Assembly (NCBI GenBank): GCA_038060535.1
Contig: JBBTHA010000021.1
Location: 1,813 to 65,812, forward strand
Origin: Elusimicrobiota bacterium
GTDB lineage: Bacteria > Elusimicrobiota > Elusimicrobia > UBA1565 > UBA9628
DNA length: 64,000 nucleotides
Reading direction: 5' to 3'
Part shown: positions 22,870 to 57,063 of the stretch, piece by piece
Numbering within the stretch: position 1 is the first letter of the stretch
Layout: the number at the start of each line of letters is the position of its first letter
Notes under the pieces: model-generated
Databases searched by the model: none
What the model was told of the DNA's origin: nothing
The model's input: only the letters and a program-made list of their open reading frames with translations
Made by a program: the position numbers and the translations under genes

Positions 22870-22952
22870 CTGCACCCCTTCTCCCTCACCGCCTTCGAAG
22901 GATTCGATAACAATAACTCGGCGCGTTTTAACAGCTAATCCATCTGACAGCA

Positions 22953-28486: not shown

Positions 28487-28643
28487 CGCCGATCGATCAG
28501 GCGGCCCACTGATTTCTTTTAGCTCGGTACAAGGGCGCTCCAGCTTGCTCCGAATAAAGCCATTATACTGACTAAAGTCGGGAACTCTAACACTTTATTT
28601 CGGTTATATCGAGATTTAATTTGATTCCCCGCCCGATTGTCGC

Positions 28644-28907
28644 TTACGGGAATCGCTCGGGAACATTGTCGAGCGTGAAGGCGAGTCTGAGTCGCTTAAG
28701 GATGGTTCGATCGGGCCGCGAAACATCGGCTTCATATCGGATCACCGTGAACGGCCGCACCTTTAGCGAGCGCGCCAAGTCCTTGAGCTTAAGACCGCGT
28801 CGCATCCTCAGGTTCTTGAGCCAGCCGCCGAACGTCGTGGGCGGGATCAGTAAGTCATAGGGGTCCCCCTTCGCCCCGGGAAACGCCTCCTTGAAGGGGT
28901 CGGCCAA
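28644..28907 (-). CDS. XRE-family HTH regulator (as called from its TTG start); the frame is open upstream to 29174 and encodes a second XRE HTH with no ATG/GTG/TTG start
   Basis: HTH2 is WLKNLRMRRGLKLKDLARSLKVRPFTVIRYEADVSRPD. The in-frame upstream region encodes HTH1 (LRFLRHKAGLSLDALAEKSGLQRNILSRLERDK) but has no canonical start before TTG 28907. Possible pseudogene or non-canonical initiation. Confidence 0.4.
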   Translation of the reverse strand: MADPFKEAFPGAKGDPYDLLIPPTTFGGWLKNLRMRRGLKLKDLARSLKVRPFTVIRYEADVSRPDRTILKRLRLAFTLDNVPERFP

Positions 28908-29224
28908 GAATGGGAGAATTCGTCCAAGGACCCAGGGGAGGTTAGCTTCGCGGCCCTTGTCGCGCTCGAGCCGGGAGAGGATGTTTCGCTGAAGTCCGCT
29001 CTTCTCGGCCAGGGCGTCGAGGCTCAGGCCGGCCTTGTGGCGAAGAAAGCGGAGCCGAACGCCGAGAGAGGCCTTGCCCGGGTCGGGGAGCAGGAAAGAA
29101 ACGGGTTTGACCGGTTTAAAGCGTCTTTTCAGCCCGAATTCTGTCCCCGCTACATCCCCTATGGGACCCCAGCTTTAATGAGACGGCCTCGGTCGTTGCA
29201 AGTAAAAGTTAGACTAACAGCCGC

Positions 29225-32727: not shown

Positions 32728-32975
32728 GGGGATAGGATGCTATAAATTGGAGAGGCCGAACAATCGCCGAGCGTCGCGCTCAACGAGCGCGCGTCCGCGA
32801 CCAGGGCATGGATTGCTTCGTCGTCCATGGGGCCCATAGAAGGATGTCCAGTGCGAAGCATGTGGCCGCGATTCTCATGGAGGATGAGCCTCAGCCGCTC
32901 GCCGTATTTAGGCAAGTGGGTCTTGGCGAAGTCAAACTCCGAAGCAGCGGGATTAAGCCTGTCTCATCGCGCACT

Positions 32976-33080
32976 ATGATGTAGCACTTTATGTGAATAA
33001 ATTTTAGACATATATTTATATTTATGTATTTTTTTAAATGATTTATTTAAATACAAATGTAGCATTGACAAGTAGCACCA
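32976..33080. promoter_or_regulatory. ~100-bp extremely AT-rich island with three ATGTAGCA-like motifs and a TTGACA hexamer
   Basis: gatgtagcactttatgtgaataaattttagacatatatttatatttatgtatttttttaaatgatttatttaaatacaaatgtagcattgacaagtagcacc. Stands out in a high-G+C genome. Upstream of ackA and a small ORF on the minus strand. Confidence 0.4.
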
Positions 33081-33213
33081 ATCGCTTCGCGTCTTCGCGG
33101 CTCAAACGGCGTTGAACACAATAATCCACGCGTTCTCATCGCTGATGATTTCAAACTGAAGATTTTCGGTTAACGAGTCCTTCGCCGGCGCGCTCTTTGA
33201 ATCGCTCCGGACC

Positions 33214-33375
33214 CTACCATGTCCACCATATGAACAGCAGCAAAATTGGACATAGCACGAGCATCATCTGCTCCTGGAGGATCCCCGCCGGAATGTCCAA
33301 ATAGCCGGGCAGAGACTGGGCCGCCAGGACCGTCAGGAGCATGATGGCGATGAAGACGACGGTGTCTTTTCGCAT
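33214..33375 (-). CDS. Possible small hydrophobic protein (MRKDTVVFIAIMLLTVLAAQSL...)
   Basis: Internal ATG of ORF 33214..33537. Two predicted TM helices. Overlaps the PGPGW ORF in another frame. Low confidence. Confidence 0.2.
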   Translation of the reverse strand: MRKDTVVFIAIMLLTVLAAQSLPGYLDIPAGILQEQMMLVLCPILLLFIWWTW

Positions 33376-33581
33376 TCCATCCCCCCGTCCCGTTTCGAAC
33401 GCAGGGACTCCCTCAGCCTGTCCATCAGCCTGCGCGCCCAGGCCGACTCGCGAGACAAGACCGTCAATCCGCCAAGGATAACCAACAGTCCCGGCCCCGG
33501 GAGCGGAATCAGAATGATTCCCGCTATCAACAGGCACCAGCCCGCGGCTGCGCGCAGAACCCGCTTGGTCGTCTCGATCAC
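33333..33581 (-). CDS. Small membrane protein with PGPGW motif
   Basis: WCLLIAGIILIPLPGPGLLVILGGLTVLS. Transmembrane PGPGW-family hallmark. Confidence 0.5.
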   Translation of the reverse strand: MIETTKRVLRAAAGWCLLIAGIILIPLPGPGLLVILGGLTVLSRESAWARRLMDRLRESLRSKRDGGMECEKTPSSSSPSCS

Positions 33582-33614
33582 GTTAAGTTCGCTGCGCAGC
33601 CGCCTCTCGAGGGG

Positions 33615-34133
33615 TCATTGCCGGGCACGAGCCATGACATCCTCGTACAAACGGGTCTTCCCCATGAGGAGTTCGTCGAGCATCCCCTCGATCTGTCCGG
33701 CCTCCTGGGGTATCACTTCGCGGACATGCCTGAGCCAATCGGGCAGCTGCTCTACGAGTTCTCTCTCAAGAGATGAGTCGTAGCCGAGCCCTCTCCTCTC
33801 AATGAGGGTTCTTCGGAACGCCAACGAGACCAAAAAGGCGTCATCAAGATAGCCGAAGAGCCCGTTGTGCTCCTCAGGCAGGATGTCTCTGGGGTGATAG
33901 AGGTAGGTGAGAACAAATCCCTGAAGCCTGCGCAACTCGGTGCTCATGCCGGGTTCCTCCATCCACGCCCGTATCTGCATCAGCATCTCCGGCATGACCA
34001 GAATCATATTGCGCAGCGGCTGCTCATGGCGGATCGCTTCTTGGGCGCCGACCCGGCGGCGGAGGTGATCGGCAAAGGCGTCCGTGGGGTCCATCGCCAT
34101 CAACTTCAACTGGCTCTTGAATGCTCGCAGCAT
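33615..34133 (-). CDS. Hypothetical cytoplasmic protein
   Basis: ATG 34133 preceded by AAGGAG. 172 aa. No confident family match; the GLFGYLDDAFLV segment is only vaguely DUF1232-like. Confidence 0.6.
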   Translation of the reverse strand: MLRAFKSQLKLMAMDPTDAFADHLRRRVGAQEAIRHEQPLRNMILVMPEMLMQIRAWMEEPGMSTELRRLQGFVLTYLYHPRDILPEEHNGLFGYLDDAFLVSLAFRRTLIERRGLGYDSSLERELVEQLPDWLRHVREVIPQEAGQIEGMLDELLMGKTRLYEDVMARARQ

Positions 34134-34240
34134 TTTTTTCTCCTTGGCCGGCAGACGTCTTCGATCAACACCAAAAGTCTAACAGCCCGGTCTATGATCG
34201 GTCAAACAGATAATATGGTATAAGTTATTCGTATAAACAA

Positions 34241-35128
34241 ATGATACCTCTCAACTACCACCACCTTTACTACTTCTACGTGGTCGCCACGGAAGGCAGC
34301 ATCGTGAAGGCCAAGGAAAAGCTGCTCTTGGCCCAGCCCACGATCAGCGGCCAGATACGCGAGTTGGAGTCGCAGTTGGGCAGACAGCTCTTCGAGCGCA
34401 AGAAGCAGCGTCTCTACCTGACCGAGGAAGGGCGGCTCGTCCTTGAGTATGCTCAGCGCATCTTCGACCTAGGACAGGAGATGTCGGACTCCCTCAAGGA
34501 CCGCCCGCCCGAGGGGCGCCTGCGGGCGCAGGTCGGCCTTGTGACCGGTACGCCTAGGGCCATCGCGCAGGCGTTGGTGGACCATCTCTTCGCGTCATTT
34601 CCCAAGGCGCATCTGACCGTGCGGGAAGATAACCTGGGAGACCTTGAGGCGGAGCTTCGAGCCCATCGGCTCGACCTGATCCTTTCCGACGCCGCCCTTT
34701 CCGGAGAAGAATCTGAGGAATTCATCTCTCGCCTGGCAGGACGCGTCCCGGTCGTTTTGGCCGCGGCTCCCAAGCTGGCGCGCAAACTGGGTCCGCTGCC
34801 GCGGGCGCTCGACGGCGCGCCGATGATCCTGCCGGCCCATCCGAGCCAGGTCTATCATCAGGTGCTCGAGCTCTTCGGCCGCTGGAAGGTCAAACCGGAC
34901 GTGGTGGCGGAAGTGCAGGACGTGGAGCTGGCCCGGCGGCTCGCCGTCGCCGGCCGAGGCATTGTCCCTCTTGACCAGGAGACGCTCAAGGCACGCCATT
35001 CGATTGGAACGCTTGTCGCCCTGCCTTCGAAGCCGTTGGGGGTCTACGAGCCAGTCTATCTCATCGCGCGCCAGCGCCGCTGGCTCAACCCCATGGCTGA
35101 GCGGGCTCTGGACCGGTTCCGGCTTTAG
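34241..35128 (+). CDS. LysR-family transcriptional regulator (NhaR-like N-terminus)
   Basis: MIPLNYHHLYYFYVVATEGSIVKAKEKLLLAQPTISGQIRELE, a LysR HTH resembling NhaR. C-terminal LysR substrate-binding domain. Confidence 0.85.
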   Translation: MIPLNYHHLYYFYVVATEGSIVKAKEKLLLAQPTISGQIRELESQLGRQLFERKKQRLYLTEEGRLVLEYAQRIFDLGQEMSDSLKDRPPEGRLRAQVGLVTGTPRAIAQALVDHLFASFPKAHLTVREDNLGDLEAELRAHRLDLILSDAALSGEESEEFISRLAGRVPVVLAAAPKLARKLGPLPRALDGAPMILPAHPSQVYHQVLELFGRWKVKPDVVAEVQDVELARRLAVAGRGIVPLDQETLKARHSIGTLVALPSKPLGVYEPVYLIARQRRWLNPMAERALDRFRL

Positions 35129-35241
35129 TTGCCTCGCTCACAGAAGCCTAACGCGAATCTGCCAGTTGACCGCGTCCCTTTGGAGGTAGTACTCTTCCGG
35201 TTGCAATGACAGTCCTGGCGTTCATTGGTCAACGGGCCAAT

Positions 35242-35430
35242 ATGAAAAAGATCGCCTTCTGCGTCCTGTTGGCATCGCTGGCGTCATGCAGGCGCCCAGC
35301 AGAGAGTGAGCGGCCCACTGAGCTGATATGCACTGCAGAGGCGAAGATGTGCCCGGACGGTTCCGCGGTGGGCCGGGTCGGACCACATTGCGAGTTCGCC
35401 CCCTGCCCCGCTCAATCCCCCTCTCGCTGA
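35242..35430 (+). CDS. Small Cys-rich lipoprotein (62 aa)
   Basis: MKKIAFCVLLASLASC lipobox. Four further Cys residues (CTAEAKMCPDG...HCEFAPCP). Internal ATG of ORF 35206..35430. Confidence 0.45.
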   Translation: MKKIAFCVLLASLASCRRPAESERPTELICTAEAKMCPDGSAVGRVGPHCEFAPCPAQSPSR

Positions 35431-35544
35431 GTCGCGGCGTGGCTCCAAGCCAAGCCGCTCAGTCGGCAGCTAGACTCAAGGCCCGTCTTTCTTGCTCCAA
35501 GAACCTCTGGAATCTCGGGGCAAAAGAAGAAGCCTAGCGCGAGA

Positions 35545-37116
35545 TCAGGATCTGCCGGGCGCGAAGGCCGGTTGGCGGATAAAATATCTCACGACGGCCA
35601 AGAAAGCCGCCCTGGCCGTGTCTCGCACCTCACGCACCAGAGCGAGATCAACACGCTGCTTGCCGGCGAGTTGGAGGGCCTTCAGTCGCTCACGCGGAGA
35701 GACGAGGCGTTGGTTCACCTCGATCAACTGGGCCAGCTGGGGCGCCAGCAAACTGGCGGCGGCCGCCGCGATCTGCTCCTGGATTGTAGGATCATCGAGA
35801 TCGTATTGCAGGACCTTGTCGAGGGCGAACTTCACGCGGGCGCTGTAGCGTCCGTTGCCGATGAAAACTGGGAAGATGTTCGCACGTGCGGCTTCCTCGT
35901 CGTCGAACTGCCCGCGCGTGAGGAACCGCACCGTGAGTTGCTCGTTCTTGCCCTCGCGAACGACCGCTTCGTAGAAGCCGTGATCTTTCTTGGCGTTTTC
36001 CTCAACCTCGCCGGCGTAAGGGATCGAGCCATTGAAGCGGTGGTAGGTCTTCTTGAATTTCTTTCCCTGCAGACCGGTCCGCGCCAAATCCTGGACTCCG
36101 GAGATCAGGCTGGCCGACATCTCCTCCACTGATTCCGAGAGGAAGAGAGGGTTATCGATCCACCTCAAAAGACGCTGGACCTCCTGCGGCGCATCTTCGT
36201 AGGCGGAGCCCGTCCAGTCGCCGGGCGTCTTGCCGTATTCCTCGGCGATGCCCATGGCCCGGTGATAGACCGTGTGGAAGTTCGTCAGAATCTCATCGGA
36301 CTGGAAGTCTCCCGACATGGAATAGCCGTTGTCCTTGTAAACGTCCGCCTTGGGCAGTGACCACCAACCCGCATCGATGAAAGAAAGCCTCAGAGGAGCG
36401 AACTGCCTCGAGTACTTGCCGCGGTCAACGTAGGCGTGCAAGAATTCATGCAAGAGCTCGGCGTTGGGTTTGGTCAAGAGCGGCCCGAAATTGTCGGCCC
36501 ACAACCAGCCGCTCGATGAGTACCCGGCGCCCCGATTAAGGTTATGGTTCGAGAGCGGACTCCACAGCAGGGTCACGCCCAGGTTCCGCTCCAAACCCCG
36601 TGCCCAGCGATTAATCCAACTCCCGCCCCCCCCGGGAATGACGAGGACGCCGTCGCTCTTCTTCGGCCGCTGGAGGGTCACATTCGCGGCCTCGGCGACT
36701 TCCAGTTGCGCCTTATTGAGCGTCGCACCGTCGAAGGGAGAACCCCACGAGACCGAGAGCTCTTCCATCATCTCCCTGTAGCGGCGCATCGCCGGGTGGT
36801 CCGTGCGCGCGGCGAAGTGCTCGCTGAAGGAGCGAGGCAATTCTGGCTTTTTTGTCTTCTCCGAGGCAGGCGTTGCGGAAGGGGCGATTGTCTTCGTCCC
36901 ATGCGGAACTGTCCGAGCGGGACTCGCAAGCACGGGCTCGGCAAGCACCGACACGGACAGGGGTTGCAGGGAGGAGACAGCCGAAAAGGGCGAGACGACC
37001 ACGGCCGGGAGCATCGGAAAGCCGCCAAGCGGCGTTTCGAGTCGCGGCACGACGGACTTCTGCGCGCCTGCCGGCAACGCCAGAACGACGAATAAGACCA
37101 AACCTCGCCAGAACAT
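35545..37116 (-). CDS. Secreted hypothetical protein with HExxH motif (putative zinc metallopeptidase)
   Basis: Signal peptide MFWRGLVLFVVLALPAGAQ. AELLHEFLHAYVD motif. ~520 aa. Divergent from arsR. Confidence 0.6.
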   Translation of the reverse strand: MFWRGLVLFVVLALPAGAQKSVVPRLETPLGGFPMLPAVVVSPFSAVSSLQPLSVSVLAEPVLASPARTVPHGTKTIAPSATPASEKTKKPELPRSFSEHFAARTDHPAMRRYREMMEELSVSWGSPFDGATLNKAQLEVAEAANVTLQRPKKSDGVLVIPGGGGSWINRWARGLERNLGVTLLWSPLSNHNLNRGAGYSSSGWLWADNFGPLLTKPNAELLHEFLHAYVDRGKYSRQFAPLRLSFIDAGWWSLPKADVYKDNGYSMSGDFQSDEILTNFHTVYHRAMGIAEEYGKTPGDWTGSAYEDAPQEVQRLLRWIDNPLFLSESVEEMSASLISGVQDLARTGLQGKKFKKTYHRFNGSIPYAGEVEENAKKDHGFYEAVVREGKNEQLTVRFLTRGQFDDEEAARANIFPVFIGNGRYSARVKFALDKVLQYDLDDPTIQEQIAAAAASLLAPQLAQLIEVNQRLVSPRERLKALQLAGKQRVDLALVREVRDTARAAFLAVVRYFIRQPAFAPGRS

Positions 37117-37210
37117 CGCCTTCAATATGGCTTTCCTGGGTGATATCCAGCATGAGGCTTTCGGTCTTTTCCGCAAGGCCAAAGGACCTGGACCGGAAAA
37201 GTGCTGCGTG

Positions 37211-37239
37211 TTGACATGCAGGACGGGGTGGGATAATAT
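37211..37239 (+). promoter_or_regulatory. Sigma70-type promoter for the ars operon (TTGACA - 17 nt - TAATAT)
   Basis: ttgacatgcaggacggggtgggataatat. Near-consensus hexamers with 17-nt spacing, ~17 nt upstream of the arsR ATG. Confidence 0.55.
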
Positions 37240-37256
37240 ATTCGTATAAACGAATA
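37237..37256 (+). promoter_or_regulatory. Dyad operator ATATTCGT-ATAA-ACGAATAT overlapping the -10 and the arsR start (putative ArsR site)
   Basis: Inverted repeat seen directly. A closely related 17-mer occurs immediately upstream of lysR at 34226-34243. Confidence 0.5.
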
Positions 37257-37597
37257 TGAATGATCAGCGAGTGAGCGGGATGTTTCGGGCCTTCGCCGAC
37301 GAGACTCGGCTGCGCATCCTGCATCTCCTAACCAAAGGCGAGCTGTGCGTCTGCGACATCATCTCCGTCCTTGAGGTCCCGCAGCCGAAGGTTTCCCGGC
37401 ACTTGAGCACCCTGAAGCGGGCGGGCCTGGTGGCTGACCGCCGAGACGGCCGGTGGAAGCACTACTCCTTGGCCCAGGCCAAGGGCGACTTTCATCATCG
37501 GCTGATCGCCTGCGTCGGAAGCTGCCTGGACGAAGCCCCGACCCTCAAGCGCGATGCCGGCAAGCTTGTGTCGATCAAGAAGGCGCGGTGTCGATGA
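37256..37597 (+). CDS. arsR: ArsR/SmtB-family metalloregulator
   Basis: ELCVCDIISVLEVPQPKVSRHLSTLKRAGLV. Metal-binding CVC in the first helix of the wHTH. Confidence 0.85.
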   Translation: MNDQRVSGMFRAFADETRLRILHLLTKGELCVCDIISVLEVPQPKVSRHLSTLKRAGLVADRRDGRWKHYSLAQAKGDFHHRLIACVGSCLDEAPTLKRDAGKLVSIKKARCR

Positions 37598-37647
37598 TTT
37601 TTTGAGTCGATATATCTACCTAAACGCATGTGCATAGAGGAGAACGC

Positions 37648-38079
37648 GTGACGAAAGAAAAGGTGTTGTTCATCTGCATCCACAACTCCGGCCGCAGCCA
37701 GATGGCCGAGGCCTTGCTCCGTCATCTGGGCGGCGACCGTTTTGAAGTCGAGAGCGCTGGTTTCGAGCCTGGGACCCTGAACCCGGTGGTCGTTGAGGCC
37801 CTCAAGGAGATCGGCATCGACATCTCGAATGCCAAGACTCAGAGCGTTTTCGAGCTGCACAAGCAGGGCCGGTCCTACCAGCGCCTCGTCACGGTGTGCG
37901 ACGAATCGAGCGCCGAGCGCTGCCCCCTCTTTCCCGGGCTCGTTGGCGACCGCATGCACTGGAGCTTCAAGGATCCCGCCGCATTCAAGGGCTCGGCGCA
38001 AGAGCGCCTGGCCCAGACGCGCGTCGTGCGCGACGAGATCAAGGGCCGGATCGAGCGCTTTCTTAAGGAGGGCGCATGA
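37648..38079 (+). CDS. arsC: Arsenate reductase, LMW protein-tyrosine-phosphatase type
   Basis: [18 protein letters not shown]-loop (CX5R). Start taken at GTG 37648, 6 nt after GAGGAG; an alternative ATG is at 37630. Confidence 0.85.
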
Positions 38080-49378: not shown

Positions 49379-50266
49379 ATGGCCACCAGCCTTCTTGCCC
49401 TTCTCGACGATATCACGACCGTCCTTGATGACGTCGCCGTGTTGTCTAAGCTCGCCGCCAAGAAGACGTCCGGGGTGCTGGGCGACGATCTGGCCCTCAA
49501 CGCGCAGCAGATCGCCGGCGTCCAGGCTCAACGCGAACTTCCCGTGGTCTGGGCCGTGGCCAAAGGATCGATCCGGAACAAAGCCATTCTGGTGCCCGCG
49601 GCTCTGCTGTTGAGCGCGCTGGCGCCTTGGGCCGTCACGCCGCTGTTGATGCTCGGCGGCCTCTATCTTTGCTACGAAGGCGTCGAAAAGATCGCCCATA
49701 AGTTTCTGCATGCCCCGGCCGAGCGCGAGCGGGAGCGCGCGGCTTTGGTCAAGGCGGCCGCCGAGCCGGGTATGGACATGGTCGTCTTCGAAAGGGATAA
49801 GATCGCCGGGGCCGTGCGCACCGACTTCGTCCTGTCGGCCGAGATCGTCGCCATCACCTTGTCCGGCGTCGCGGGGACGACGTTCGCCGTGCGCGCGGGC
49901 GTCTTGACGGCCGTTTCGGCGTTCATGACCATCTTCGTTTACGGCTTCGTGGCGTGTGTAATCAAGCTCGACGACCTCGGCCTGCACCTCAGCAACAAAA
50001 GGAATGGCGCCGCTGTCGGCCGGGCCATCCTCTTGGCCGCGCCCTGGCTGATGAAGACCCTCTCGGTGGTCGGCACCGCCGCCATGTTTCTCGTGGGAGG
50101 CGGTATCCTGGTTCACGGCCTGCCCCGCGTCGGCCAGGCTGTCCATGACCTCGCCCATGCGGCCGGTCCTCTGGGCTTCTTGCTGAGCGCCGCCGGCGAC
50201 GCGGCAGTCGGCGTCATCGCCGGCGCGCTGGCGCTCGCCGTTTCTCGCGCGGTCGCGAAGTCTTAA
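49379..50266 (+). CDS. DUF808 (YedI-like) inner-membrane protein
   Basis: MATSLLALLDDITTVLDDVAVLSKLAAKKTSGVLGDDLALNAQQ. Canonical DUF808 N-terminus. Confidence 0.75.
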   Translation: MATSLLALLDDITTVLDDVAVLSKLAAKKTSGVLGDDLALNAQQIAGVQAQRELPVVWAVAKGSIRNKAILVPAALLLSALAPWAVTPLLMLGGLYLCYEGVEKIAHKFLHAPAERERERAALVKAAAEPGMDMVVFERDKIAGAVRTDFVLSAEIVAITLSGVAGTTFAVRAGVLTAVSAFMTIFVYGFVACVIKLDDLGLHLSNKRNGAAVGRAILLAAPWLMKTLSVVGTAAMFLVGGGILVHGLPRVGQAVHDLAHAAGPLGFLLSAAGDAAVGVIAGALALAVSRAVAKS

Positions 50267-53037
50267 GAGCACCCCATCGCATTGCCGCAGTTGAGGCACT
50301 TGTAGCAGCTTCCCGAGCGCACGGTGACATGGCCGCAATGGGCGCAGAACGGGGCGTCTCCCATGAGTCGTGAAAGGTGCGCGTCTGGCGAGTCCTTGCG
50401 CATGGCGGGGCTTGCCGCCGCCGCGAGCTCCTTGACCGGCGCCGGCGGGGCGACGTGAGCCAGATCGGCGCGGCCCAGGTAATCCAAGCCCAGAACCCGG
50501 AAGATCAGGTCCACGATCGAGCTCGCCTGCTTGATGTGGGGATGGCGGACCGGACCGCTGGGCTCGAAGCGAGTGAAGGTCAGCCGGTCGACCAAGTCCT
50601 CCAGCGGCACGCCGTACTGCAGGCCCAGCGAGACGGCGATCGACAGGCAGTTCAGCATTTCTTGGACGGGCGAACCCGGCTTGCCGAAGTCGAGGAAAAG
50701 CTCGCCCAGGCGGCCGTCGGGATATTCGCCCGTGCGGATGTAGAGCTTCTGTCCGTTGAGCGCCGTCTCGACCGTGTGTCCCGACCGCTTTTGGGGCAGG
50801 TAGCGCCGCTCCAGTATCCTGCCCGCCATCGCGGCCTCGGCGTCGCCGGCCGCGTCTTTTTTCTGCATGACGGACAAGGGCTGGGACAGCTTGCAGCCGT
50901 CTCGGTACAGCGCCACGGCTTTGAGTCCCAGCTTCCAACTTTCGATATAGGCGCTTTCGATGTCGGCCACGGTCGCCTGGTGGGGCATGTTGATCGTCTT
51001 TGAAATCGCCCCGGAGAGGAACGGCTGCGCCGCCGCCATCATGCGCGCGTGGCCCAGCGGAGCGATGAATCGCCCCCCCTCCACGGCGGGATTGGCGCAG
51101 TCGAAGACCGGCAGGTGCTCCTCGCGCAAGCCGGGGGCCGCCTCCGCGCTTCCCGTCTCCAGAATGTGGGCGACGATTCGCTTGGCCTGCGCGGGTTCGT
51201 AGCCGAGACGGAGCAGGGACTTCTCCACCGAGTCGTTGACGATTTTGAGCGTGCCGCCGCCGGAGAGCTTCTTGAATTTGACCAAGGCGTAGTCGGGCTC
51301 GATGCCGGTGGTGTCGCAGTCCATCAAGAGGCCGATGGTGCCCGTCGGAGCGAGGACGGTGGCCTGCGCGTTGCGAAAGCCGTGAGCCTCACCCGCGGCC
51401 AGCGCCGCGTCCCAGGCCTGCCTGGCCGCCTCTAGAAGCTCTTGGGGGCAGCCGTTCTCGAGCGTCTCGAGGGCCTGGCGGTGGCGCCGCAGGACGGCCA
51501 GCATCGGCTCGCGGTTGGCGGCAAATCCCTCGAAGGCGCCGCGCGCGGCGGCGAACTCGGCCGAGGCGCGGTAGGCCGTTCCCGTCATGAGGGCCGTCAC
51601 GGCCGCCGCCCAGCCGCGCGCGCGCGCCGAGTCGTAGGGCAGGCCGAGGATCATCAGCAGGCAGCCCAGGTTCGCGTAGCCCAGCCCTAAGGGGCGATAG
51701 GCGTGGGTGTTCTCGGCGATTTTTCGGGTCGGATAGCTCGAGAGGTCCACCAGGATCTCTTGCGCCAGGAAGACCAGGCGCGTCGCGTGGCCAAAGGCCG
51801 CGGCGTCGAAGCGGCCGTCTTCGCGCAGGAACTTGACGAGGTTGAGCGAGGCGAGGTTGCAGGCCGTGTCGTCGAGGAACATGTACTCCGAGCAGGGGTT
51901 GGAGGCGTGGATGCGGTCGGTGTTCGGGCAGGTGTGAAAACGGTTGATCGTCGTGTCGAACTGCAGGCCCGGGTCGGCGCACGACCAGGCCGCCTGGGCG
52001 ATCAGCTTCATGAGTTTGCGCGCGCTCAGCGTCTCGTGGACCTGGCCGTTGGTGCGCAGCGTCGTCGACCAAGGAGCGTCGTCGAGGACGGCTTGCATGA
52101 ACTCGTCGGTGACGCGGATCGAGTTGTTGGAGTTCTGGCCGCTGACCGTGCGGTAGGCTTCCCCGTTGAAGTCCGAGTCGTAGCCCGCGGCCACCAGCAC
52201 GGCCACTTTCTTCTCCTCGCGCTGCTTCCACTGGATGAAGTCCTCGATCTCCGGGTGGTCGGCGTCGAGGCAGACCATCTTGGCGGCGCGCCGGCCGATG
52301 CCGCCGGACTTGATGGCCCCCGCCCCCTTGTCGAGCACCTCCAAGAAGAACATCAGGCCCGAGGGAGAGCCGCCGGTCGACAGCTTCTCGTGGCGGCTTC
52401 GGATGCGGGAAAAATTCGTTCCCGAGCCCGAGCCGTACTTGAAGATGCGCGCCTCGTTCTTGGACAGCTCGAAGATCGAGGTCAGGCTGTCGTCGAGAGC
52501 CTGGATGAAGCAGGCCGAGACCTGGGGGCGGCTGTAGGCGTCGGCGCACTCTTTCGCGCGTCCGGTCGGGCGATCGAAGGCCCAGTTCCCCCCTTGGCCC
52601 TTGAGGCCGTATTCATGGTGCAGCCCGCAGTTGAGCCAAACCGGCGTGTTGAAAGCGGCGTATTGGTTGATGAGAAGGAAGGCGAGTTCATCCTCGAACG
52701 CCGCCGCGGCCGCGGCGTCGGTGAAATATTTTCCCTCCTCGCCGGCTTTGCGGATCGTGCGCGCCACTCGCCCGACGACCTGGCGGGCGCTGTTCTCGCG
52801 CAGGGAGGCGTCGGCGCTCATCGGGCGGCAGTACTTGGAGGCGAGGATGTCGGTCGACAGCTGAGACCAGCCTTCGGGAACTTCCACGTCCCGCATCTCG
52901 AAGACGGTTGAGCCGTCCGCGTCGGCGATGCGCGAGGAGGTCCTCTTGTATCGGATTTCGTCGAGAGGATTTTTATCAGGCGTTGTGAAGATTCGCTCGA
53001 CGGGAAGACCTTTCGTCTTGGATGGTGGGCGTGTCAT
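50263..53037 (-). CDS. nrdJ: Ribonucleotide reductase, class II (adenosylcobalamin-dependent)
   Basis: Start ATG 53037 preceded by GGAGG. NPCSEYMFLDDTACNLASLNL active-site region. C-terminal Cys-rich tail CAHCGHV...CYKCLNCGN. Confidence 0.9.
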   Translation of the reverse strand: MTRPPSKTKGLPVERIFTTPDKNPLDEIRYKRTSSRIADADGSTVFEMRDVEVPEGWSQLSTDILASKYCRPMSADASLRENSARQVVGRVARTIRKAGEEGKYFTDAAAAAAFEDELAFLLINQYAAFNTPVWLNCGLHHEYGLKGQGGNWAFDRPTGRAKECADAYSRPQVSACFIQALDDSLTSIFELSKNEARIFKYGSGSGTNFSRIRSRHEKLSTGGSPSGLMFFLEVLDKGAGAIKSGGIGRRAAKMVCLDADHPEIEDFIQWKQREEKKVAVLVAAGYDSDFNGEAYRTVSGQNSNNSIRVTDEFMQAVLDDAPWSTTLRTNGQVHETLSARKLMKLIAQAAWSCADPGLQFDTTINRFHTCPNTDRIHASNPCSEYMFLDDTACNLASLNLVKFLREDGRFDAAAFGHATRLVFLAQEILVDLSSYPTRKIAENTHAYRPLGLGYANLGCLLMILGLPYDSARARGWAAAVTALMTGTAYRASAEFAAARGAFEGFAANREPMLAVLRRHRQALETLENGCPQELLEAARQAWDAALAAGEAHGFRNAQATVLAPTGTIGLLMDCDTTGIEPDYALVKFKKLSGGGTLKIVNDSVEKSLLRLGYEPAQAKRIVAHILETGSAEAAPGLREEHLPVFDCANPAVEGGRFIAPLGHARMMAAAQPFLSGAISKTINMPHQATVADIESAYIESWKLGLKAVALYRDGCKLSQPLSVMQKKDAAGDAEAAMAGRILERRYLPQKRSGHTVETALNGQKLYIRTGEYPDGRLGELFLDFGKPGSPVQEMLNCLSIAVSLGLQYGVPLEDLVDRLTFTRFEPSGPVRHPHIKQASSIVDLIFRVLGLDYLGRADLAHVAPPAPVKELAAAASPAMRKDSPDAHLSRLMGDAPFCAHCGHVTVRSGSCYKCLNCGNAMGCS

Positions 53038-53122
53038 TGGATAATCCTCCGGAAATGGGCGCAAATGGGACGAACATTCTACCTCCAGCCGGCGTGCGCA
53101 CGGCGCGCGCCGGTCGCGATCG

Positions 53123-53147
53123 GTCACGAGTCGTGACAGGTTGTGAC
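53123..53147. promoter_or_regulatory. Dyad GTCACGA-G-TCGTGAC plus a third GTGAC half-site in the nrdJ / NACHT divergent intergenic region
   Basis: Perfect 7-bp inverted repeat seen directly. Function unknown; does not fit the remembered NrdR box. Confidence 0.3.
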
Positions 53148-53180
53148 CGGGAGGCCGCGCGATGCGGTAAAATAGCGGGC

Positions 53181-55460
53181 ATGGAACTTCACCGCGTCGA
53201 GCTGGCTCGCCTGTTCGGCCCGGTCCAAAGCGGCAGGCTTTGGCGCCACCGCGTCACCGAGAGGCTGTCCAAGCTCAACCGCCTGGGAGGCCGGCACGGC
53301 GTTAGCTTGCGGGCCGATTGGACGGACCTTAGGCTGCTCATTTACCACTCGGGTCGCCGGCGTCTGGAGGAGTTCCGTCTCGAGCTTTCCAAGGGCAACG
53401 GAGCCGTTCAGAGGGCCCTGTCTTTGGCTTTGGACACAGGGGGCCCGCGCGAGCCGGATGGCGGCGGCCCGTCTCTCAAGGGATTGGTCAGGCTCCAGCT
53501 GGGAGAGCTTTCCGCGGGAGCCTCTCGGTCCGTGCCCTTCGCCGCGGGCGATGCGAGCGGAGCCCTGTTCGTGGATTCGCCCTACCGTCTCCATCTGTCT
53601 CCGGGAACCCCCGGACCGCTGCGCTCCTGCGCGGCGGGCTTCTTGCTCGACTCCTTGAGGTCGTCGAAAATCTTCCACGGCTGGGTTCTCTCGGAGCCCG
53701 GAGGCGGAAAGACGACTTTGCTCGATCATGTCTTCCAGGAATGCTGCCGCCTCTTCCTGGCCGGAGACCTTGCGCTTTTGCCCGTCCGCTTCCCCGCGGT
53801 TCACGCCGAGATACGGCAGGGCCGCGTGTGGGGGTGGAGTGCCGCGGCCGAGGCGACCCTGCGCGAAAATCCGGAAGCCGCCGCGGCCCTGCGCGAGTTC
53901 GAGCTCGCCGGCAAGATCGTCTTTTTCATCGACGGGTTGGATGAGAACGCCGATGTGGCGGACGTCTCGCGCCTGGAGGTTCTCAGGGCGTGGCAAAGCG
54001 CCTTGCGCAGCCGCTGCGTTTTCAGCTGCCGGTCTCGCTTCTACGCGCAGCAGATCGAGGGCGGAGGCTTCGAGCGCTTGGCCCCGGGGCGCGAGCTGAT
54101 GTCCTTGGCCGAGTGGGGTCACGCCGAAGCCCGGGTGCTATTTCGCCGCCTGGCACTGCGCCGGCCGGCTTCGCCGACGGAGCCGGCCGGCCTGTCGCCC
54201 AAACTCAGGGACGCCTTCGCCCATCTCGCCGATTTGCCCGCCAGGGACCTGACGGCGCGGACCGCGGCCTTTCGCAAGACGCCGCTGAACTTGCGGCTCT
54301 ATACATTGTTCGTCGCCGCCAACCGCGCGCATTTTCCCCGCAATGAGTACGAGCTCCTCGAGTTCGTCTTCCAATCCCTCTGTCGCTGGCAGACGGCCAA
54401 GCGCGGACGCGTCCTGTCGCCTCAAGCCGCGGCGGGCCTGCTGACGAGGCTCGCTTGGGAGGGCTACGCCGCGGGGCGCGGCGGGGCGCGGCGCTTCTCT
54501 CCTCCCGCGGAGTTGTCGCGCCTGCTTGAGGAGCGCGGCGCTTGCCCGCGGCAGAAAAGGGAGCAAGCGCTCTTGGAGCTCGAGACCAATCCCCTGCTCG
54601 AATGCGACCAAGAAAGCGGCGTCCTATCCATCGATCCGCACTTTATGGATTTTCTCGCGGCGAGGCAGTTGATCCAGACCTTGCTGCTTGCCGACGTCGC
54701 GCAGGCCCGCGAGCAGTTTTCCAAGCCCGTGCTCTGGGACGTGGCCCGTTGCCTGGACGAGGGCACGGAGCTTTTGAGCGGGGAGCAGAGGCGCGACACC
54801 GCGCAATGCCTGATCGGCGCCTTCAAGGCCCGCGAGCGGGAGTACGCCCGCAAGCGCGATTTCGCCTCGGCGTTGGCGCTCAATCAGATCGGCTACCATC
54901 TCGGGAAAATGGGCGAGCCCGCCGGGCGCGAGTTCCTGCACGGCGTCTTGAAGAAGCCAAGCCCGGCCCTGCGCGCCGAGATGTGCTATTGGGCCATCGT
55001 CATCGGCTTAGCGTTTTCCGGCGACACCGAGCCCCTGGAACATTACATCGACCGCCTCGAAAAACGGCCGCGGGTCCCCCCGCCCAACATGGCCTACTGC
55101 CAGGTGTATTATTTGGACAAGAGGGTCGACGAGGGCGATTTGAAGACGGCGCTCAAGGAGATCGGCCCCACCTGGGAGAAGACCTGCGACCGCCTTCTGG
55201 GCCAGCTCGCCTCGAAGAACTTCCTTGGCATCCGCCTGATGGACATCTTCCTGCTTCGGCGCTATTTGGAGGTGCTGGGACCGGCGCCGTTCCTGGCCGA
55301 CGGCGAGCGCGAGCGCCAAGACGCTTTGCGCCGCCTCCTTCCCCGCCTGGCCCTCGAGTGCGCCGGCCAGCCGCGCGCCCGCCTTCAGTTGGCGCGCTTG
55401 GAAAAAACCTTGGCTTCTCTCGGTCTCGCCGCGAAAGAAAGTTCCGCCCTCGCTTGTTGA
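53181..55460 (+). CDS. NACHT-family STAND NTPase with uncharacterised ~190-aa N-terminal region and helical C-terminal region
   Basis: Walker A GWVLSEPGGGKTTLLDHV. Walker B KIVFFIDGLDE. Start at the internal ATG 53181, preceded by TAAAAT. Confidence 0.75.
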   Translation: MELHRVELARLFGPVQSGRLWRHRVTERLSKLNRLGGRHGVSLRADWTDLRLLIYHSGRRRLEEFRLELSKGNGAVQRALSLALDTGGPREPDGGGPSLKGLVRLQLGELSAGASRSVPFAAGDASGALFVDSPYRLHLSPGTPGPLRSCAAGFLLDSLRSSKIFHGWVLSEPGGGKTTLLDHVFQECCRLFLAGDLALLPVRFPAVHAEIRQGRVWGWSAAAEATLRENPEAAAALREFELAGKIVFFIDGLDENADVADVSRLEVLRAWQSALRSRCVFSCRSRFYAQQIEGGGFERLAPGRELMSLAEWGHAEARVLFRRLALRRPASPTEPAGLSPKLRDAFAHLADLPARDLTARTAAFRKTPLNLRLYTLFVAANRAHFPRNEYELLEFVFQSLCRWQTAKRGRVLSPQAAAGLLTRLAWEGYAAGRGGARRFSPPAELSRLLEERGACPRQKREQALLELETNPLLECDQESGVLSIDPHFMDFLAARQLIQTLLLADVAQAREQFSKPVLWDVARCLDEGTELLSGEQRRDTAQCLIGAFKAREREYARKRDFASALALNQIGYHLGKMGEPAGREFLHGVLKKPSPALRAEMCYWAIVIGLAFSGDTEPLEHYIDRLEKRPRVPPPNMAYCQVYYLDKRVDEGDLKTALKEIGPTWEKTCDRLLGQLASKNFLGIRLMDIFLLRRYLEVLGPAPFLADGERERQDALRRLLPRLALECAGQPRARLQLARLEKTLASLGLAAKESSALAC

Positions 55461-55521
55461 ATGGAAGGTGCTCAAAGAGGCTTATTTTGGACCCCAGGTG
55501 GAGACTGTCTCCGGGGCGCTC

Positions 55522-56673
55522 TCAAATGCGGGAGCGTGCGGCCCAAGCGGTCGGATCGCAGACTGTGAACTCAAGTCCGGCCAAACGGCGGACAGAGCCG
55601 TCGCCGGCGACCGGGCTGATGACGTAGTTTTTCCCGTTGGGATGAAGGGCGCGGAAAGCCTTCAGCCCGGCAGGATCGAAGTCACTGGAGTTCCACTTGC
55701 ATTCCAGGACATCGACGCGATCGCGGCCGTGAGGCAGGACGAAATCCAGTTCCCGACCGGCCTTGTCCCTCCAATAGCGTATATCCTCGTCGGGCCGACG
55801 CGCTTGCAGGTATTCAAGGGTCAGATGCTCCCAGAGCGCCCCGCAATCATCCGCACGGAGCGTGTCCCAGCCTCGTGTAAAACAGACGAAGCCGGTGTCG
55901 AAGGCGTAGACCTTCGGTGTCTTCACGAGTTCTTTTTGGCCGTTGCCGAAGAACGGACGCAGGATCGTCACGGCCTGAGTGATCTCCAGCGCGCGCAGAT
56001 GGGCGGTGATAGTGGGGCGGCTGATGCCGAGACCGGAAGCGGCCTTGGCCGCCTCGAAGAGGCCGCCGCTTTGGCGCAGGAGATACTCGAAGAGCGCGTT
56101 GAATTTTTCGGGGGCGTGGAAGGCGAAGAGACCTTGGACGTCGCGACTGAAGAAGGAATCGAGCCACTCCCGGTAGAAGCCCGGGTCCAACGTCTCGGCG
56201 AGCAAGGGCTGGGGAAGTCCGCCGTGAAGGAGGCGCTTCTTTAGGGTGGCTGCGCCAAAGTCTCCGAGTTCATCGAAAGCGACGGGGGTCAGGTGGACGG
56301 TTCTCTTGCGCCCCGTCAGCGTGTCGCGGAACTTGCGCGTGGCCGCGAGAGTGGAGGAGCCTGTGGCGAGAATTTTCAGCTTGGGGAACGCATCCGCGCC
56401 GATTTTAAGCACTCGGCTCGGGTCCTCGAGCTGATGGATCTCGTCGAAAACCACGATCTCGCGGCGGCATTCGCGGTAGAACAGTTCTGGATCGCGCAGC
56501 ATCTGTACGCTGGCCGGCAGATCGCAATTGACATAGTGGACGGATTCCGCGGGCAGGTCGCGCGTGAGCGTCGTCTTGCCCGAACGGCGCACCCCGCAAA
56601 GCCAAACAATCGGGGCCTTGGCCCAACTCTCACGGATGCGGGTGCTCCAAAGAGGTCTTTTTACCATAACCAT
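55522..56673 (-). CDS. AAA-domain ATPase with C-terminal DUF4143
   Basis: LCGVRRSGKTTL Walker A...VVFDEIH Walker B. C-terminal DUF4143-like region. Confidence 0.8.
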   Translation of the reverse strand: MVMVKRPLWSTRIRESWAKAPIVWLCGVRRSGKTTLTRDLPAESVHYVNCDLPASVQMLRDPELFYRECRREIVVFDEIHQLEDPSRVLKIGADAFPKLKILATGSSTLAATRKFRDTLTGRKRTVHLTPVAFDELGDFGAATLKKRLLHGGLPQPLLAETLDPGFYREWLDSFFSRDVQGLFAFHAPEKFNALFEYLLRQSGGLFEAAKAASGLGISRPTITAHLRALEITQAVTILRPFFGNGQKELVKTPKVYAFDTGFVCFTRGWDTLRADDCGALWEHLTLEYLQARRPDEDIRYWRDKAGRELDFVLPHGRDRVDVLECKWNSSDFDPAGLKAFRALHPNGKNYVISPVAGDGSVRRLAGLEFTVCDPTAWAARSRI

Positions 56674-56865
56674 ACTTTACATTTAGTCGTTAAAAAAGTA
56701 AAGTGCGATTACTCGTGGCCATCATGAGGTGCAGCTGGAAATCGAACATGGATAAATCTCAGAAGAGGGAGCGTTTCAATTGATTCGTAATCAAGAAGCT
56801 AAAATATAGTGTCGTTCGGCCATGGACCATGGATTGGATGTCGTTGTGATTGCTTGGAGGAAAAA

Positions 56866-56985
56866 ATGATGGTACGGCGCAGCGTGCTCGTCACCGCAAT
56901 CGTGGGAATTGCCGCGTCTTGGTCGTTGGCGGGAGCATCGGGCCGCACCCGGCGTCTATTCCTAAGACTGCCGCGGCGACGGTGA
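56866..56985 (+). CDS. Possible 39-aa membrane micro-protein (MMVRRSVLVTAIVGIAASWSLAGASGRTRRLFLRLPRRR)
   Basis: Not in the ORF track (<60 aa). GGAGG 6 nt upstream of ATG-ATG. Single hydrophobic helix plus Arg-rich tail. Confidence 0.3.
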   Translation: MMVRRSVLVTAIVGIAASWSLAGASGRTRRLFLRLPRRR

Positions 56986-57063
56986 TTTTTTATATTCTAA
57001 CGGCGCATGCTTGCGAGCAAGGATAATCCAACTCCCTCGTCGCGGAGAAAAAAGGGGCGGCGG

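What the first reader, a model, noticed from the sequence alone, without database searches (positions are those of the whole stretch)
53181..56673. NACHT-family STAND NTPase with an unassigned N-terminal region next to a DUF4143 AAA ATPase: candidate defence locus
Bacterial NACHT proteins (bNACHT) have been shown to be antiphage sensors whose N-terminal domains act as effectors. Here ~190 aa precede the Walker A motif (GWVLSEPGGGKTTLLDHV) with no motif I recognise. A long helical C-terminal region follows the NTPase. The gene is wedged between nrdJ and a convergent DUF4143 ATPase, a family frequently seen in defence islands.
Basis: partly seen in the sequence, partly recalled or inferred. Interest (0 to 1): 0.6.

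Follow-up and report, generated by a model that had tools for sequence, protein, structure and literature searches.

The report
Lineage-specific NACHT switch protein beside nrdJ
The gene is a real, divergent NACHT-type molecular switch found only in Elusimicrobiota. It is inherited together with the neighbouring ribonucleotide reductase gene and is not paired with the DUF4143 ATPase, so "defence locus" is not the best-supported reading.

Summary
The described features are there. A 759-aa ORF (53181-55460, +) carries Walker A GGGKT (K177) and the NACHT Walker B signature DGLDE. Its predicted core is NLR-like, and two HEAT-like repeats sit in an all-helical C-terminus. The basic N-terminal domain (~115 aa) matches nothing in Pfam or PDB. 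A convergent AAA_14+DUF4143 gene and a divergent nrdJ flank it.

The two-gene defence reading fails. No DUF4143 homologue occurs in 24 related loci, and the STAND protein hits no PADLOC model.

The protein belongs to a tiny family whose named members are all Elusimicrobiota, and the N-terminal domain is conserved family-wide. All six close-relative loci keep it divergent from nrdJ while the outer flanks differ. Its dN/dS (0.17-0.23) is close to nrdJ's (0.15-0.16), and the C-terminal region is among its best-conserved parts.

Deeper relatives sit in a co-diverging cassette: STAND, MFS exporter, SagB-family dehydrogenase, sometimes with a family-5 solute-binding protein. The window lacks these partners.

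Best reading: an orphaned, vertically inherited ligand-gated NTPase switch with unknown output. The DUF4143 gene is an independent PDC-S01-type candidate. Antiphage function is not excluded (about 0.27).

The parts
53181..55460 (+). STAND/NACHT-clade NTPase gene, 759 aa
   Evidence: ORF with GC3 0.81. Start supported by homologue alignment A1. AlphaFold model pLDDT 85.7, pTM 0.78. Foldseek top hits are NOD2, NLRC4, NAIP5 and NLRP3.
53181..53522 (+). Family-specific basic N-terminal region: compact beta-alpha-alpha-beta-beta-alpha-alpha domain (aa 1-86) plus a long helix (aa 93-114). Conserved W-HR..ER.SK.N and G.VQR motifs.
   Evidence: Secondary structure and pLDDT 76-93. Conserved across 21 members. 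pI 9.8-11.7 in all 20 members scored. No Pfam or PDB match and no other architecture found.
53523..53582 (+). Low-confidence, variable linker (aa 115-134)
   Evidence: Residues 115-125 have pLDDT <50. This is the least conserved segment, 57-63% identity.
53583..54116 (+). Nucleotide-binding domain (aa 135-312). Walker A SEPGGGKTT at 53691-53717 (K177). Walker B IVFFIDGLDEN at 53916-53948 (D251, D254, E255).
   Evidence: Sequence. G176, K177 and D251 are invariant or near-invariant. D[GAS]hDE is the published NACHT signature. Profile hits to NLRP3, NLRP1 and an 'NLR family protein 1' chain.
54117..54860 (+). Helical domain 1 (aa 313-388), winged-helix domain (aa 389-485), then helical domain 2 (aa 486-560). 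The DPHFMDFLAA motif (His487) at 54633-54662 spans the boundary between the last two.
   Evidence: AlphaFold elements. Foldseek alignments of 497-666 columns to NLR structures. Domain borders are my reading of the secondary structure.
54861..55457 (+). C-terminal helical solenoid with two HEAT-like (alphaRep/PBS-lyase type) repeats around aa 561-630; presumed sensor
   Evidence: Profile against PDB: alphaRep/HEAT repeat proteins, E = 3e-17. All-helical in the model. 86% and 78% identity in the two close relatives compared, against 80% and 74% for the whole protein.
53038..53180 (.). 143-bp divergent nrdJ/STAND control region. It holds the nrdJ ribosome-binding site (53045-50, minus strand), a nrdJ -10-like TAGAAT (53076-81, minus strand), the palindrome GTCACGAGTCGTGAC (53123-37) with a third half-site GTGAC (53143-47), and a STAND -10-like TAAAAT (53168-73) 7 nt before the ATG.
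   Evidence: Five-way alignment A5 shows conserved blocks separated by a variable stretch. L003 carries the same symmetric change in all three half-sites. No NrdR-box core is present.
50263..53037 (-). nrdJ, class II B12-dependent ribonucleotide reductase, 924 aa. It is the only conserved neighbour of the STAND gene in the close clade.
   Evidence: NCBIfam NF005122, 1239 bits. 85% and 83% identical to the L001 and L003 copies. Adjacent in L001-L004, L007 and L008.
55522..56673 (-). AAA_14 + DUF4143 ATPase, 383 aa. An independent PDC-S01-type candidate gene, not a partner of the STAND gene.
   Evidence: Pfam and PADLOC PDC-S01, E ~ 1e-49. GC3 of 0.74, the lowest among neighbouring genes. AT-rich upstream region. 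Absent from all 24 related loci.

Best explanation
The gene encodes a vertically inherited, divergent NACHT-clade STAND NTPase, known so far only from Elusimicrobiota MAGs. It is not half of a two-gene defence locus.

Shown: an intact P-loop and DGLDE Walker B, a predicted NLR-like core (nucleotide-binding, helical and winged-helix domains), a C-terminal helical solenoid with HEAT-like repeats, and a family-specific, strongly basic ~115-aa N-terminal domain.

Inferred mechanism, by analogy with solved NLRs: the C-terminal solenoid binds a conserved ligand, nucleotide exchange releases autoinhibition, the protein oligomerises, and the clustered N-terminal domains deliver the output.

In deeper branches of the family the gene sits in a co-diverging cassette with an EntS-like MFS exporter and a SagB-family FMN dehydrogenase, sometimes with a family-5 solute-binding protein. 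I therefore infer that the family's original role is to control or scaffold a small-molecule or peptide handling module. The window's clade has lost these neighbours, is fixed divergently next to nrdJ, and evolves as slowly as nrdJ. That points to a conserved cellular signalling or regulatory role, possibly through nucleic-acid binding by the basic domain, rather than an arms-race sensor.

The DUF4143 gene is a separate, probably horizontally acquired, PDC-S01-type ATPase-nuclease candidate.
For: - Architecture.
- Rarity and phylum restriction: 5 close relatives among 5.8e9 clusters, and 71 hits (18 below 1e-30) among 1.84e9 representatives. All named core members are Elusimicrobiota.
- N-terminal domain: aligned from position ~5 in most full-length members and not found in other architectures.
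- Synteny: nrdJ and STAND are adjacent in all 6 close loci, while both outer flanks differ in three configurations.
- Selection: dN/dS is 0.17 and 0.23 for STAND against 0.15 and 0.16 for nrdJ. The C-terminal region is 86% and 78% identical against 80% and 74% overall. GC3 is host-like.
- Cassette: STAND-MFS-SagB occurs in 7 loci on several deep branches, and the partners are themselves diverged (MFS 24-36% identity, SagB-like 35-52%). Two paralogous copies occur in one genome.
- No PADLOC model matches either the window protein or the L005 homologue.
- DUF4143 is absent from all 24 related loci.
Against: - Bacterial NACHT proteins are often antiphage (Kibby et al. preprint).
- Some relatives have defence-like or mobile surroundings. 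L005 abuts DrmD-like, LmuB-like and DUF4297-HerA genes. L006 lies 2.6 kb from a reverse transcriptase. The L022 cassette follows integrase, ParA and ParB, and precedes a patatin gene.
- By my count, 2 of 17 loci lie near known defence genes. Against a 1.5% background this gives P ~ 0.03.
- The loci were found through the STAND gene itself, so presence/absence polymorphism at nrdJ could not be tested.
- All data come from metagenome-assembled genomes (MAGs).
Confidence: 0.5

Rival explanations
1. Single-gene bNACHT/Avs-like antiphage sensor. The HEAT-like solenoid recognises a phage protein or an infection cue, oligomerisation follows, and the novel basic N-terminal domain acts as an abortive-infection effector, for example on nucleic acid or membrane.
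For: NACHT-clade core with the tripartite layout typical of bNACHT proteins. A relative lies next to a defence island (L005), and others lie near a reverse transcriptase or on an integrase island. Mild enrichment near defence genes, P ~ 0.03. The strongly basic N-terminal domain could target nucleic acid. A PDC-S01 candidate gene is adjacent in the window.
Against: No PADLOC model hit and no recognisable effector domain. The N-terminal domain is fixed across the family instead of being swapped. The family is restricted to one phylum. The gene is stably syntenic with nrdJ, and its dN/dS is close to nrdJ's. The sensor is not a fast-evolving segment; it is 86% and 78% identical against 80% and 74% for the whole protein. 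The conserved partners in relatives are an exporter and a dehydrogenase.
Confidence: 0.27
2. STAND-type transcription factor. The basic N-terminal domain binds the conserved palindrome between the divergent promoters and controls nrdJ and/or its own gene in response to a ligand sensed by the C-terminus.
For: Divergent arrangement with a 143-bp shared control region, conserved in all close relatives. The 15-bp palindrome plus third half-site shows a symmetric substitution in L003. No NrdR box lies upstream of this nrdJ. The N-terminal domain has pI ~11.6, with conserved basic residues along helix 19-37. STAND regulators such as AfsR exist.
Against: No HTH or other DNA-binding domain was detected. 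The palindrome is absent upstream of STAND genes in all other clades, although the N-terminal motif is conserved there. The site therefore tracks nrdJ, not the STAND family. At 47% identity (L009) the nrdJ linkage is already lost.
Confidence: 0.12
3. Two-gene defence system in which the STAND sensor works with the DUF4143 ATPase-nuclease.
For: The two genes are adjacent, with 61 bp between their convergent stop codons. DUF4143 matches the candidate PDC-S01.
Against: The genes are convergent, so they are not co-transcribed. No DUF4143 homologue occurs in any of 24 related loci; PagP, P450, MFS or other genes take its place. PDC-S01 is described as a single-gene candidate. The gene's GC3 is lower and its upstream flank is AT-rich, which suggests separate acquisition.
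Confidence: 0.03

Closest known systems
Bacterial NACHT (bNACHT) antiphage proteins (Kibby et al., bioRxiv 10.1101/2022.07.19.500537) and animal NLRs (NOD2, NLRC4, NAIP5, NLRP3)
   Same: P-loop and the D[GAS]hDE Walker B signature. Predicted core of nucleotide-binding, helical and winged-helix domains. Tripartite layout: N-terminal output domain, NACHT module, C-terminal repeat sensor. HEAT repeats are a listed bNACHT sensor type.
   Different: Below the Pfam NACHT threshold and no PADLOC model hit. The N-terminal domain is unassigned and fixed across the family rather than being a swapped known effector. The family is restricted to one phylum and vertically inherited, and relatives have MFS and SagB-like partners. 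No phage-defence data exist.
NACHT + HEAT-repeat proteins found as distant profile hits (e.g. P0078, Nitrosomonas MAG; P0079)
   Same: NACHT module followed by HEAT-type repeats.
   Different: Only the NTPase or repeat regions align (E = 1e-8 to 1e-14). They are longer, have many more repeats, and lack this family's N-terminal domain.
STAND transcription regulators (AfsR, MalT / LAL type)
   Same: A non-immune STAND switch that couples ligand sensing to an output domain. Chromosomal and conserved, sometimes divergent from the target gene (otherwise from general knowledge).
   Different: Those proteins carry recognisable DNA-binding domains (SARP or LuxR-type HTH) and belong to other STAND clades. 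None is detectable here.
PADLOC candidate PDC-S01 (for the DUF4143 neighbour)
   Same: AAA_14 ATPase plus DUF4143, a PD-(D/E)XK-superfamily domain. Full-length HMM match, E ~ 1e-49.
   Different: PDC-S01 is only a 'putative defence candidate' awaiting validation. It shows no linkage to the STAND family.
SagB-related 'peptide maturation dehydrogenase' systems (NCBIfam TIGR04511 / TIGR03605). Relevant to the cassette in relatives, not to the window.
   Same: The cassette's 'nitroreductase' passes the SagB-family domain cut-off (97-124 bits against 78.4) and resembles TIGR04511.
   Different: Below the TIGR04511 cut-off (139-158 bits against 240). No cyclodehydratase or conserved precursor peptide was seen. 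The window contains no homologue.

Membership tests
NACHT clade of STAND NTPases | Walker A GxxxxGK[ST] | tested here: met
   SEPGGGKTT, with G176 and K177 invariant or near-invariant.
NACHT clade of STAND NTPases | Walker B signature D[GAS]hDE, as stated by Kibby et al. | tested here: met
   D251-G-L-D-E255. Most family members have DG[LIV]DE, and some deviate.
NACHT clade of STAND NTPases | Winged-helix extension after the AAA+ core; overall NLR-like fold | tested here: met
   AlphaFold model with pLDDT 85.7. The Foldseek top hits are NOD2, NLRC4, NAIP5 and NLRP3 (E = 3e-8 to 1e-6, 497-666 aligned columns). This rests on a prediction, not a solved structure.
NACHT clade of STAND NTPases | Pfam PF05729 score at or above the gathering threshold | tested here: not met
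   17.4 bits against 26.7; the L005 homologue scores 18.7 bits. The family is divergent. NCBI labels two members 'NACHT domain-containing'.
bNACHT / Avs antiphage systems | Match to a defence-system HMM (PADLOC-DB v2) | tested here: not met
   0 families at E <= 0.1 for the window protein and 0 at E <= 0.001 for the L005 homologue. The NCBIfam EruA hit is only 15.8 bits against a cut-off of 1000.
bNACHT / Avs antiphage systems | Recognised effector domain at a terminus (nuclease, TIR, protease, transmembrane segment, etc.) | tested here: not met
   No Pfam or PDB match for residues 1-118, by sequence or by profile. Comparisons with RelE and a KH domain were negative. A domain-level fold search was not possible.
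bNACHT / Avs antiphage systems | Significant enrichment next to known defence genes. The criterion in PMC13581612 is a binomial test against a 1.53% background with P <= 1e-4. | tested here: inconclusive
   About 2 of 17 distinct loci (L005, L006) give P ~ 0.027. The sample is small and was annotated with PADLOC rather than DefenseFinder.
bNACHT / Avs antiphage systems | Protection against phage, dependent on the Walker A lysine | not testable with these tools
   Requires an experiment.
Two-gene STAND + DUF4143 system | Conserved co-occurrence of the two genes | tested here: not met
   tblastn with the DUF4143 protein found no hit in 24 related loci.
PDC-S01 (DUF4143 neighbour only) | Full-length match to PDC-S01 HMMs; AAA_14 + DUF4143 architecture | tested here: met
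   PDLC04789 E = 2e-48 over residues 3-353. Pfam AAA_14 E = 4e-22 and DUF4143 E = 7e-29.
STAND transcription regulators (AfsR / MalT type) | Recognisable DNA-binding domain | tested here: not met
   No HTH, SARP or LuxR domain in Pfam or NCBIfam. The only support is a basic N-terminal domain.
NrdR regulon (for the intergenic palindrome) | Two 16-bp NrdR boxes with conserved C4, A6, A8, T9, T11, G13, spaced 15-16 bp apart (PMC13584703) | tested here: not met
   No core match with <= 1 mismatch in 53038-53180. The palindrome is 15 bp long with a GC-rich centre.

The most novel reading that the evidence does not exclude
The window gene is an orphaned member of an undescribed Elusimicrobiota NACHT family. 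The family's ancestral form would be a STAND-controlled small-molecule or peptide module: NACHT switch + EntS-like MFS exporter + SagB-family FMN dehydrogenase, sometimes with a family-5 solute-binding protein. This could be a new kind of chemical defence or signalling system. In the nrdJ-linked clade the switch would have been rewired to nucleotide metabolism, acting through the conserved non-NrdR palindrome in the shared divergent promoter region via a new type of basic nucleic-acid-binding domain.
Probability: 0.15. Interest if true: 0.7.

Novelty: new variant of a known kind. Interest (0 to 1): 0.38.

Why it matters
Adjacency to a "defence-flavoured" gene is weak evidence. Here a NACHT protein behaves like a conserved core gene of its lineage, with slow evolution, fixed synteny with nrdJ and restriction to one phylum. 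It adds a concrete case to the recent view that defence and non-defence STAND clades are interspersed (PMC13581612).

If followed up, the family offers three things:
- a new, small, basic output domain for NLR-like switches;
- an apparently undescribed conserved NACHT-MFS-SagB cassette in a poorly studied phylum;
- a candidate non-NrdR control site for a class II ribonucleotide reductase.

None of these is established yet.

Tried and rejected
- **First AlphaFold run.** The run on 6 close sequences was poor (pLDDT 59). It was replaced by a 31-sequence run.
- **N-terminal domain by sequence.** The N-terminal profile against PDB, Pfam and the 5.8e9-cluster protein collection found nothing beyond the family.
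- **Topology leads.** The beta-alpha-alpha-beta-beta-alpha order recalled a type-I KH domain or RelE. They remain untested leads only.
- **Precursor peptide.** No conserved small ORF was found between the STAND and MFS genes.
- **Operator in other clades.** The GTCAC-N5-GTGAC site was searched upstream of STAND genes in other clades and is absent there. This weakens the idea that the STAND protein binds it.
- **NrdR box.** Not met.
- **RNA elements.** Rfam found no riboswitch or other RNA near nrdJ; the only hit in the window is tRNA-His at 13814.
- **Possible paralogue.** The 743-aa ORF at 29225-31456 is unrelated.
- **Metagenome locus search.** It was redone with A7.
- **My own error.** My first nrdJ coordinates (…53036) were out of frame. 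This produced misleading BLAST fragments. It was corrected to 53037.
Full report
**1. Observation**

The window is GC-rich (about 64%). The ORF 53022-55460 (+) has GC3 of 0.81, like its neighbours. Four homologues begin with M/V-E-[ILA]-[LV]-R, aligned to the ATG at 53181, so the protein is 759 aa. The quoted motif GWVLSEPGGGKTTLLDHV is residues 167-184.

The neighbour at 55522-56673 (-) is a 383-aa AAA_14 + DUF4143 protein, and the two genes are convergent. The upstream divergent gene is a class II B12-dependent ribonucleotide reductase. Alignment of the intergenic region places the nrdJ start at the ATG at 53037, behind a GGAGGA ribosome-binding site, not at 53127. This leaves a 143-bp control region.

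**2. Anatomy of the protein**

Pfam reports NACHT only below threshold (E = 0.004; 17.4 bits against 26.7). PADLOC reports nothing. Other evidence supports the NACHT assignment:
- The Walker B region reads IVFFIDGLDEN. This fits the D[GAS]hDE signature that Kibby et al. give as separating NACHT from other STAND proteins.
- A family profile hits NLRP3, NLRP1 and related NLR chains over the NTPase region (E ~ 2e-5). It also hits designed alphaRep/HEAT repeat proteins over profile positions ~551-629 (E = 3e-17).

AlphaFold on six close sequences was poor (pLDDT 59). With a 31-sequence family alignment it reached pLDDT 85.7 and pTM 0.78. Foldseek against the PDB then returned NOD2, NLRC4, NAIP5 and NLRP3 as top hits, with 497-666 aligned columns.

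My reading of the model:
- aa 1-86: compact beta-alpha-alpha-beta-beta-alpha-alpha domain
- aa 93-114: long helix
- aa 115-134: weakly predicted linker
- aa 135-312: nucleotide-binding domain
- aa 313-388: helical domain
- aa 389-485: winged-helix domain, followed by the DPHFMDFLAA motif containing His487
- aa 486-560: second helical domain
- aa 561-750: helical solenoid containing the two HEAT-like repeats

The N-terminal ~118 aa match nothing in Pfam or PDB, even as a 20-member profile. A profile search of 5.8e9 protein clusters found them in no other architecture. The region is strongly basic in every member (pI 9.8-11.7), while the rest of the protein is mostly near neutral. Conserved residues W22, H23, R24, E27, R28, S30, K31 and N33 lie along helix 19-37.

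**3. Family and distribution**

The family is very small. There are 5 close relatives (73-80% identity) among 5.8e9 clusters. An exhaustive HMM scan of 1.84e9 representatives gave 71 hits at E <= 1e-3 and 18 at E <= 1e-30.

Most full-length hits (about 700-790 aa) align from profile position ~5 to ~715. The N-terminal domain is thus part of the family's fixed architecture. All core members that carry a source name come from Elusimicrobiota MAGs. More distant hits are ordinary NACHT+HEAT proteins.

**4. Context of the close clade**

In all six loci of the close clade (L001-L004, L007, L008) the STAND gene lies divergent from nrdJ, about 145 bp away. The gene beyond nrdJ differs between loci: DUF808, a response regulator, or a DUF748/AsmA protein. 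So does the gene beyond the STAND gene: DUF4143, PagP, or a P450. The pair is therefore the only conserved unit.

| Measure | L001 | L003 |
|---|---|---|
| nrdJ identity to window | 85% | 83% |
| STAND identity to window | 80% | 74% |
| nrdJ dN/dS | 0.15 | 0.16 |
| STAND dN/dS | 0.17 | 0.23 |
| STAND C-terminal solenoid identity | 86% | 78% |

The C-terminal solenoid is thus better conserved than the protein as a whole. This is not the pattern expected of a fast-evolving, mobile defence sensor. At 47% identity (L009) the nrdJ linkage is gone.

One caveat applies. The loci were found through the STAND gene itself, so I could not test whether some related genomes lack it.

**5. The control region**

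Five-way alignment shows conserved blocks separated by a variable stretch:
- A TAGAAT-like -10 element for nrdJ on the minus strand (53076-81).
- A perfect 15-bp palindrome GTCACGAGTCGTGAC (53123-37), plus a third GTGAC half-site 10 bp further on.
- A T-A-[AG]-A-A-T element exactly 7 nt before the STAND ATG. This implies a leaderless transcript.

In L003 all three half-sites carry the same change (ATCAC / GTGAT), which argues for a real protein-binding site.

The palindrome is not an NrdR box. The published core positions C4, A6, A8, T9, T11 and G13 are not matched, and there is no second box. The palindrome is also absent upstream of STAND genes in other clades, whereas the "GG[CT]TAGAAT-N7-ATG" arrangement recurs in the P0007 clade. 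The palindrome therefore tracks nrdJ and is not evidence that the STAND protein binds DNA.

**6. Context of deeper relatives**

Seven loci carry STAND followed by an EntS-like MFS transporter and a ~320-380-aa "nitroreductase": L005, L012, L013, L014, L020, L022 and L024. The nitroreductase passes the NCBIfam SagB-family dehydrogenase cut-off. The partners have diverged as deeply as the STAND gene (MFS 24-36% identity, SagB-like 35-52%). Two paralogous cassettes occur in one genome.

A family-5 solute-binding protein is adjacent in L006, L017, L019 and L024. On a neighbour-joining tree the cassette-bearing lineages occupy several deep branches. The window clade and the P0007/P0010 clade are "solo" lineages, the latter with neighbours such as NUDIX, SecG, PGK and GAPDH.

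The cassette is thus plausibly ancestral and the window gene an orphan. The 64-kb window holds no MFS or SagB homologue of this type. I found no paper linking NACHT proteins with SagB-like genes.

**7. Defence signals that remain**

- L005's copy abuts a DrmD-like SNF2 helicase (709 bits), an LmuB-like ATPase and a DUF4297-HerA pair.
- L006 has a reverse transcriptase 2.6 kb upstream.
- L022's cassette follows integrase, ParA and ParB, and precedes a patatin gene.

Counting two of 17 loci near known defence genes against a 1.53% background gives P ~ 0.03. The background comes from the Nature 2026 STAND survey. This is suggestive but far from that paper's 1e-4 criterion.

**8. The DUF4143 gene**

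The gene matches PADLOC PDC-S01 over its full length (E ~ 1e-49). PDC-S01 is an ATPase fused to a PD-(D/E)XK-superfamily domain. It is described as a very common single-gene "putative defence candidate" whose validation is pending.

In the window the gene is convergent with the STAND gene. It has the lowest GC3 among neighbouring genes (0.74) and an AT-rich 330-bp upstream flank. It is absent from all 24 related loci. It is best seen as an independent insertion in a variable spot downstream of the STAND gene.

**9. Verdict**

- **Best explanation (about 0.5).** A vertically inherited, divergent NACHT switch specific to Elusimicrobiota. The ligand-gated oligomerisation mechanism is inferred from the NLR fold. 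The output runs through a novel basic N-terminal domain. The family was ancestrally tied to an exporter/dehydrogenase module. In this clade the gene is orphaned beside nrdJ, with a conserved cellular role.
- **Rivals.** A single-gene antiphage sensor with a new effector (about 0.27); a regulator of nrdJ (about 0.12); a STAND+DUF4143 pair (about 0.03).
- **Classification.** A new variant of a known kind. It is of moderate interest, mainly for the unassigned output domain and the undescribed cassette in relatives.

Noticed in passing
L005 9932-14710; L012 1095-6221; L013 442-5170; L014 48-4904; L020 3-3295; L022 8001-12851; L024 1903-8260: Deeper relatives of the STAND protein sit in a conserved, co-diverging cassette: STAND, then an EntS-like MFS transporter, then a SagB-family FMN dehydrogenase. 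In L024 a family-5 solute-binding protein follows. In L006 and L017 that protein lies directly upstream with a 4-5 bp gap. Two paralogous cassettes occur in one genome (GCA_042563375.1). I found no description of this in the searched literature.
   Followed up: partly
window 53123-53147 (also L001 9942-9956, L008 4013-4027, L003 ~6915-6945): A conserved 15-bp palindrome GTCACGAGTCGTGAC plus a third GTGAC half-site lies between the divergent nrdJ and STAND promoters. L003 carries the same symmetric substitution in all three half-sites. It is not an NrdR box, and no NrdR box is present upstream of this nrdJ.
   Followed up: partly
window 53168-53183; L010 ~3051-3071; L019 ~7941-7961; L021 ~4704-4724: STAND genes of two clades have a 'GG[CT]TA[GA]AAT' -10-like element exactly 7 nt before the ATG and no ribosome-binding site. 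This suggests leaderless mRNAs.
   Followed up: partly
L005 1197-9573: A defence island lies next to a distant family member: HerA (587 bits) + DUF4297, an LmuB-like SMC ATPase, and a DrmD-like SNF2 helicase (709 bits).
   Followed up: partly
L022 1-7708 and 17231-18361: The cassette in this Elusimicrobia MAG follows a phage-type integrase, ParA, ParB and several unknown genes, and is followed by an 820-aa patatin-domain protein. It looks like an integrated mobile island.
   Followed up: no
window 56674-57006: An AT-rich ~330-bp stretch lies upstream of the DUF4143 gene. It contains a promoter-like TTTACA-17-TAAAGT, a 39-aa ORF (56866-56985) with a ribosome-binding site and a hydrophobic-then-Arg-rich product, and a terminator-like hairpin with a T-run (56969-56994).
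   Followed up: no
window 20000-38000: A lower-GC stretch (0.58-0.63 against ~0.65) holds large ORFs with no Pfam match: 22953-27482 (1509 aa), 27578-28486, 29225-31456 (743 aa) and 35545-37182. It lies next to a 1885-aa NHL/Big-domain surface protein (15792-21449). The 743-aa ORF is unrelated to the STAND family.
   Followed up: partly
L016 3216-7955: A 1579-aa protein with a C-terminal ATP-grasp / L-amino-acid-ligase module ends 10 bp before the STAND gene of a 'solo' clade member. A 586-aa convergent gene with no Pfam match overlaps the STAND stop codon; convergent ORFs sit in the same position in L010 and L011.
   Followed up: no
window 50263-53127: The longest nrdJ ORF overextends by 30 codons into the intergenic region. 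The conserved start is the ATG at 53037. The protein ends with a Cys-rich CxxC...CxxC tail after the TSCPD domain.
   Followed up: yes
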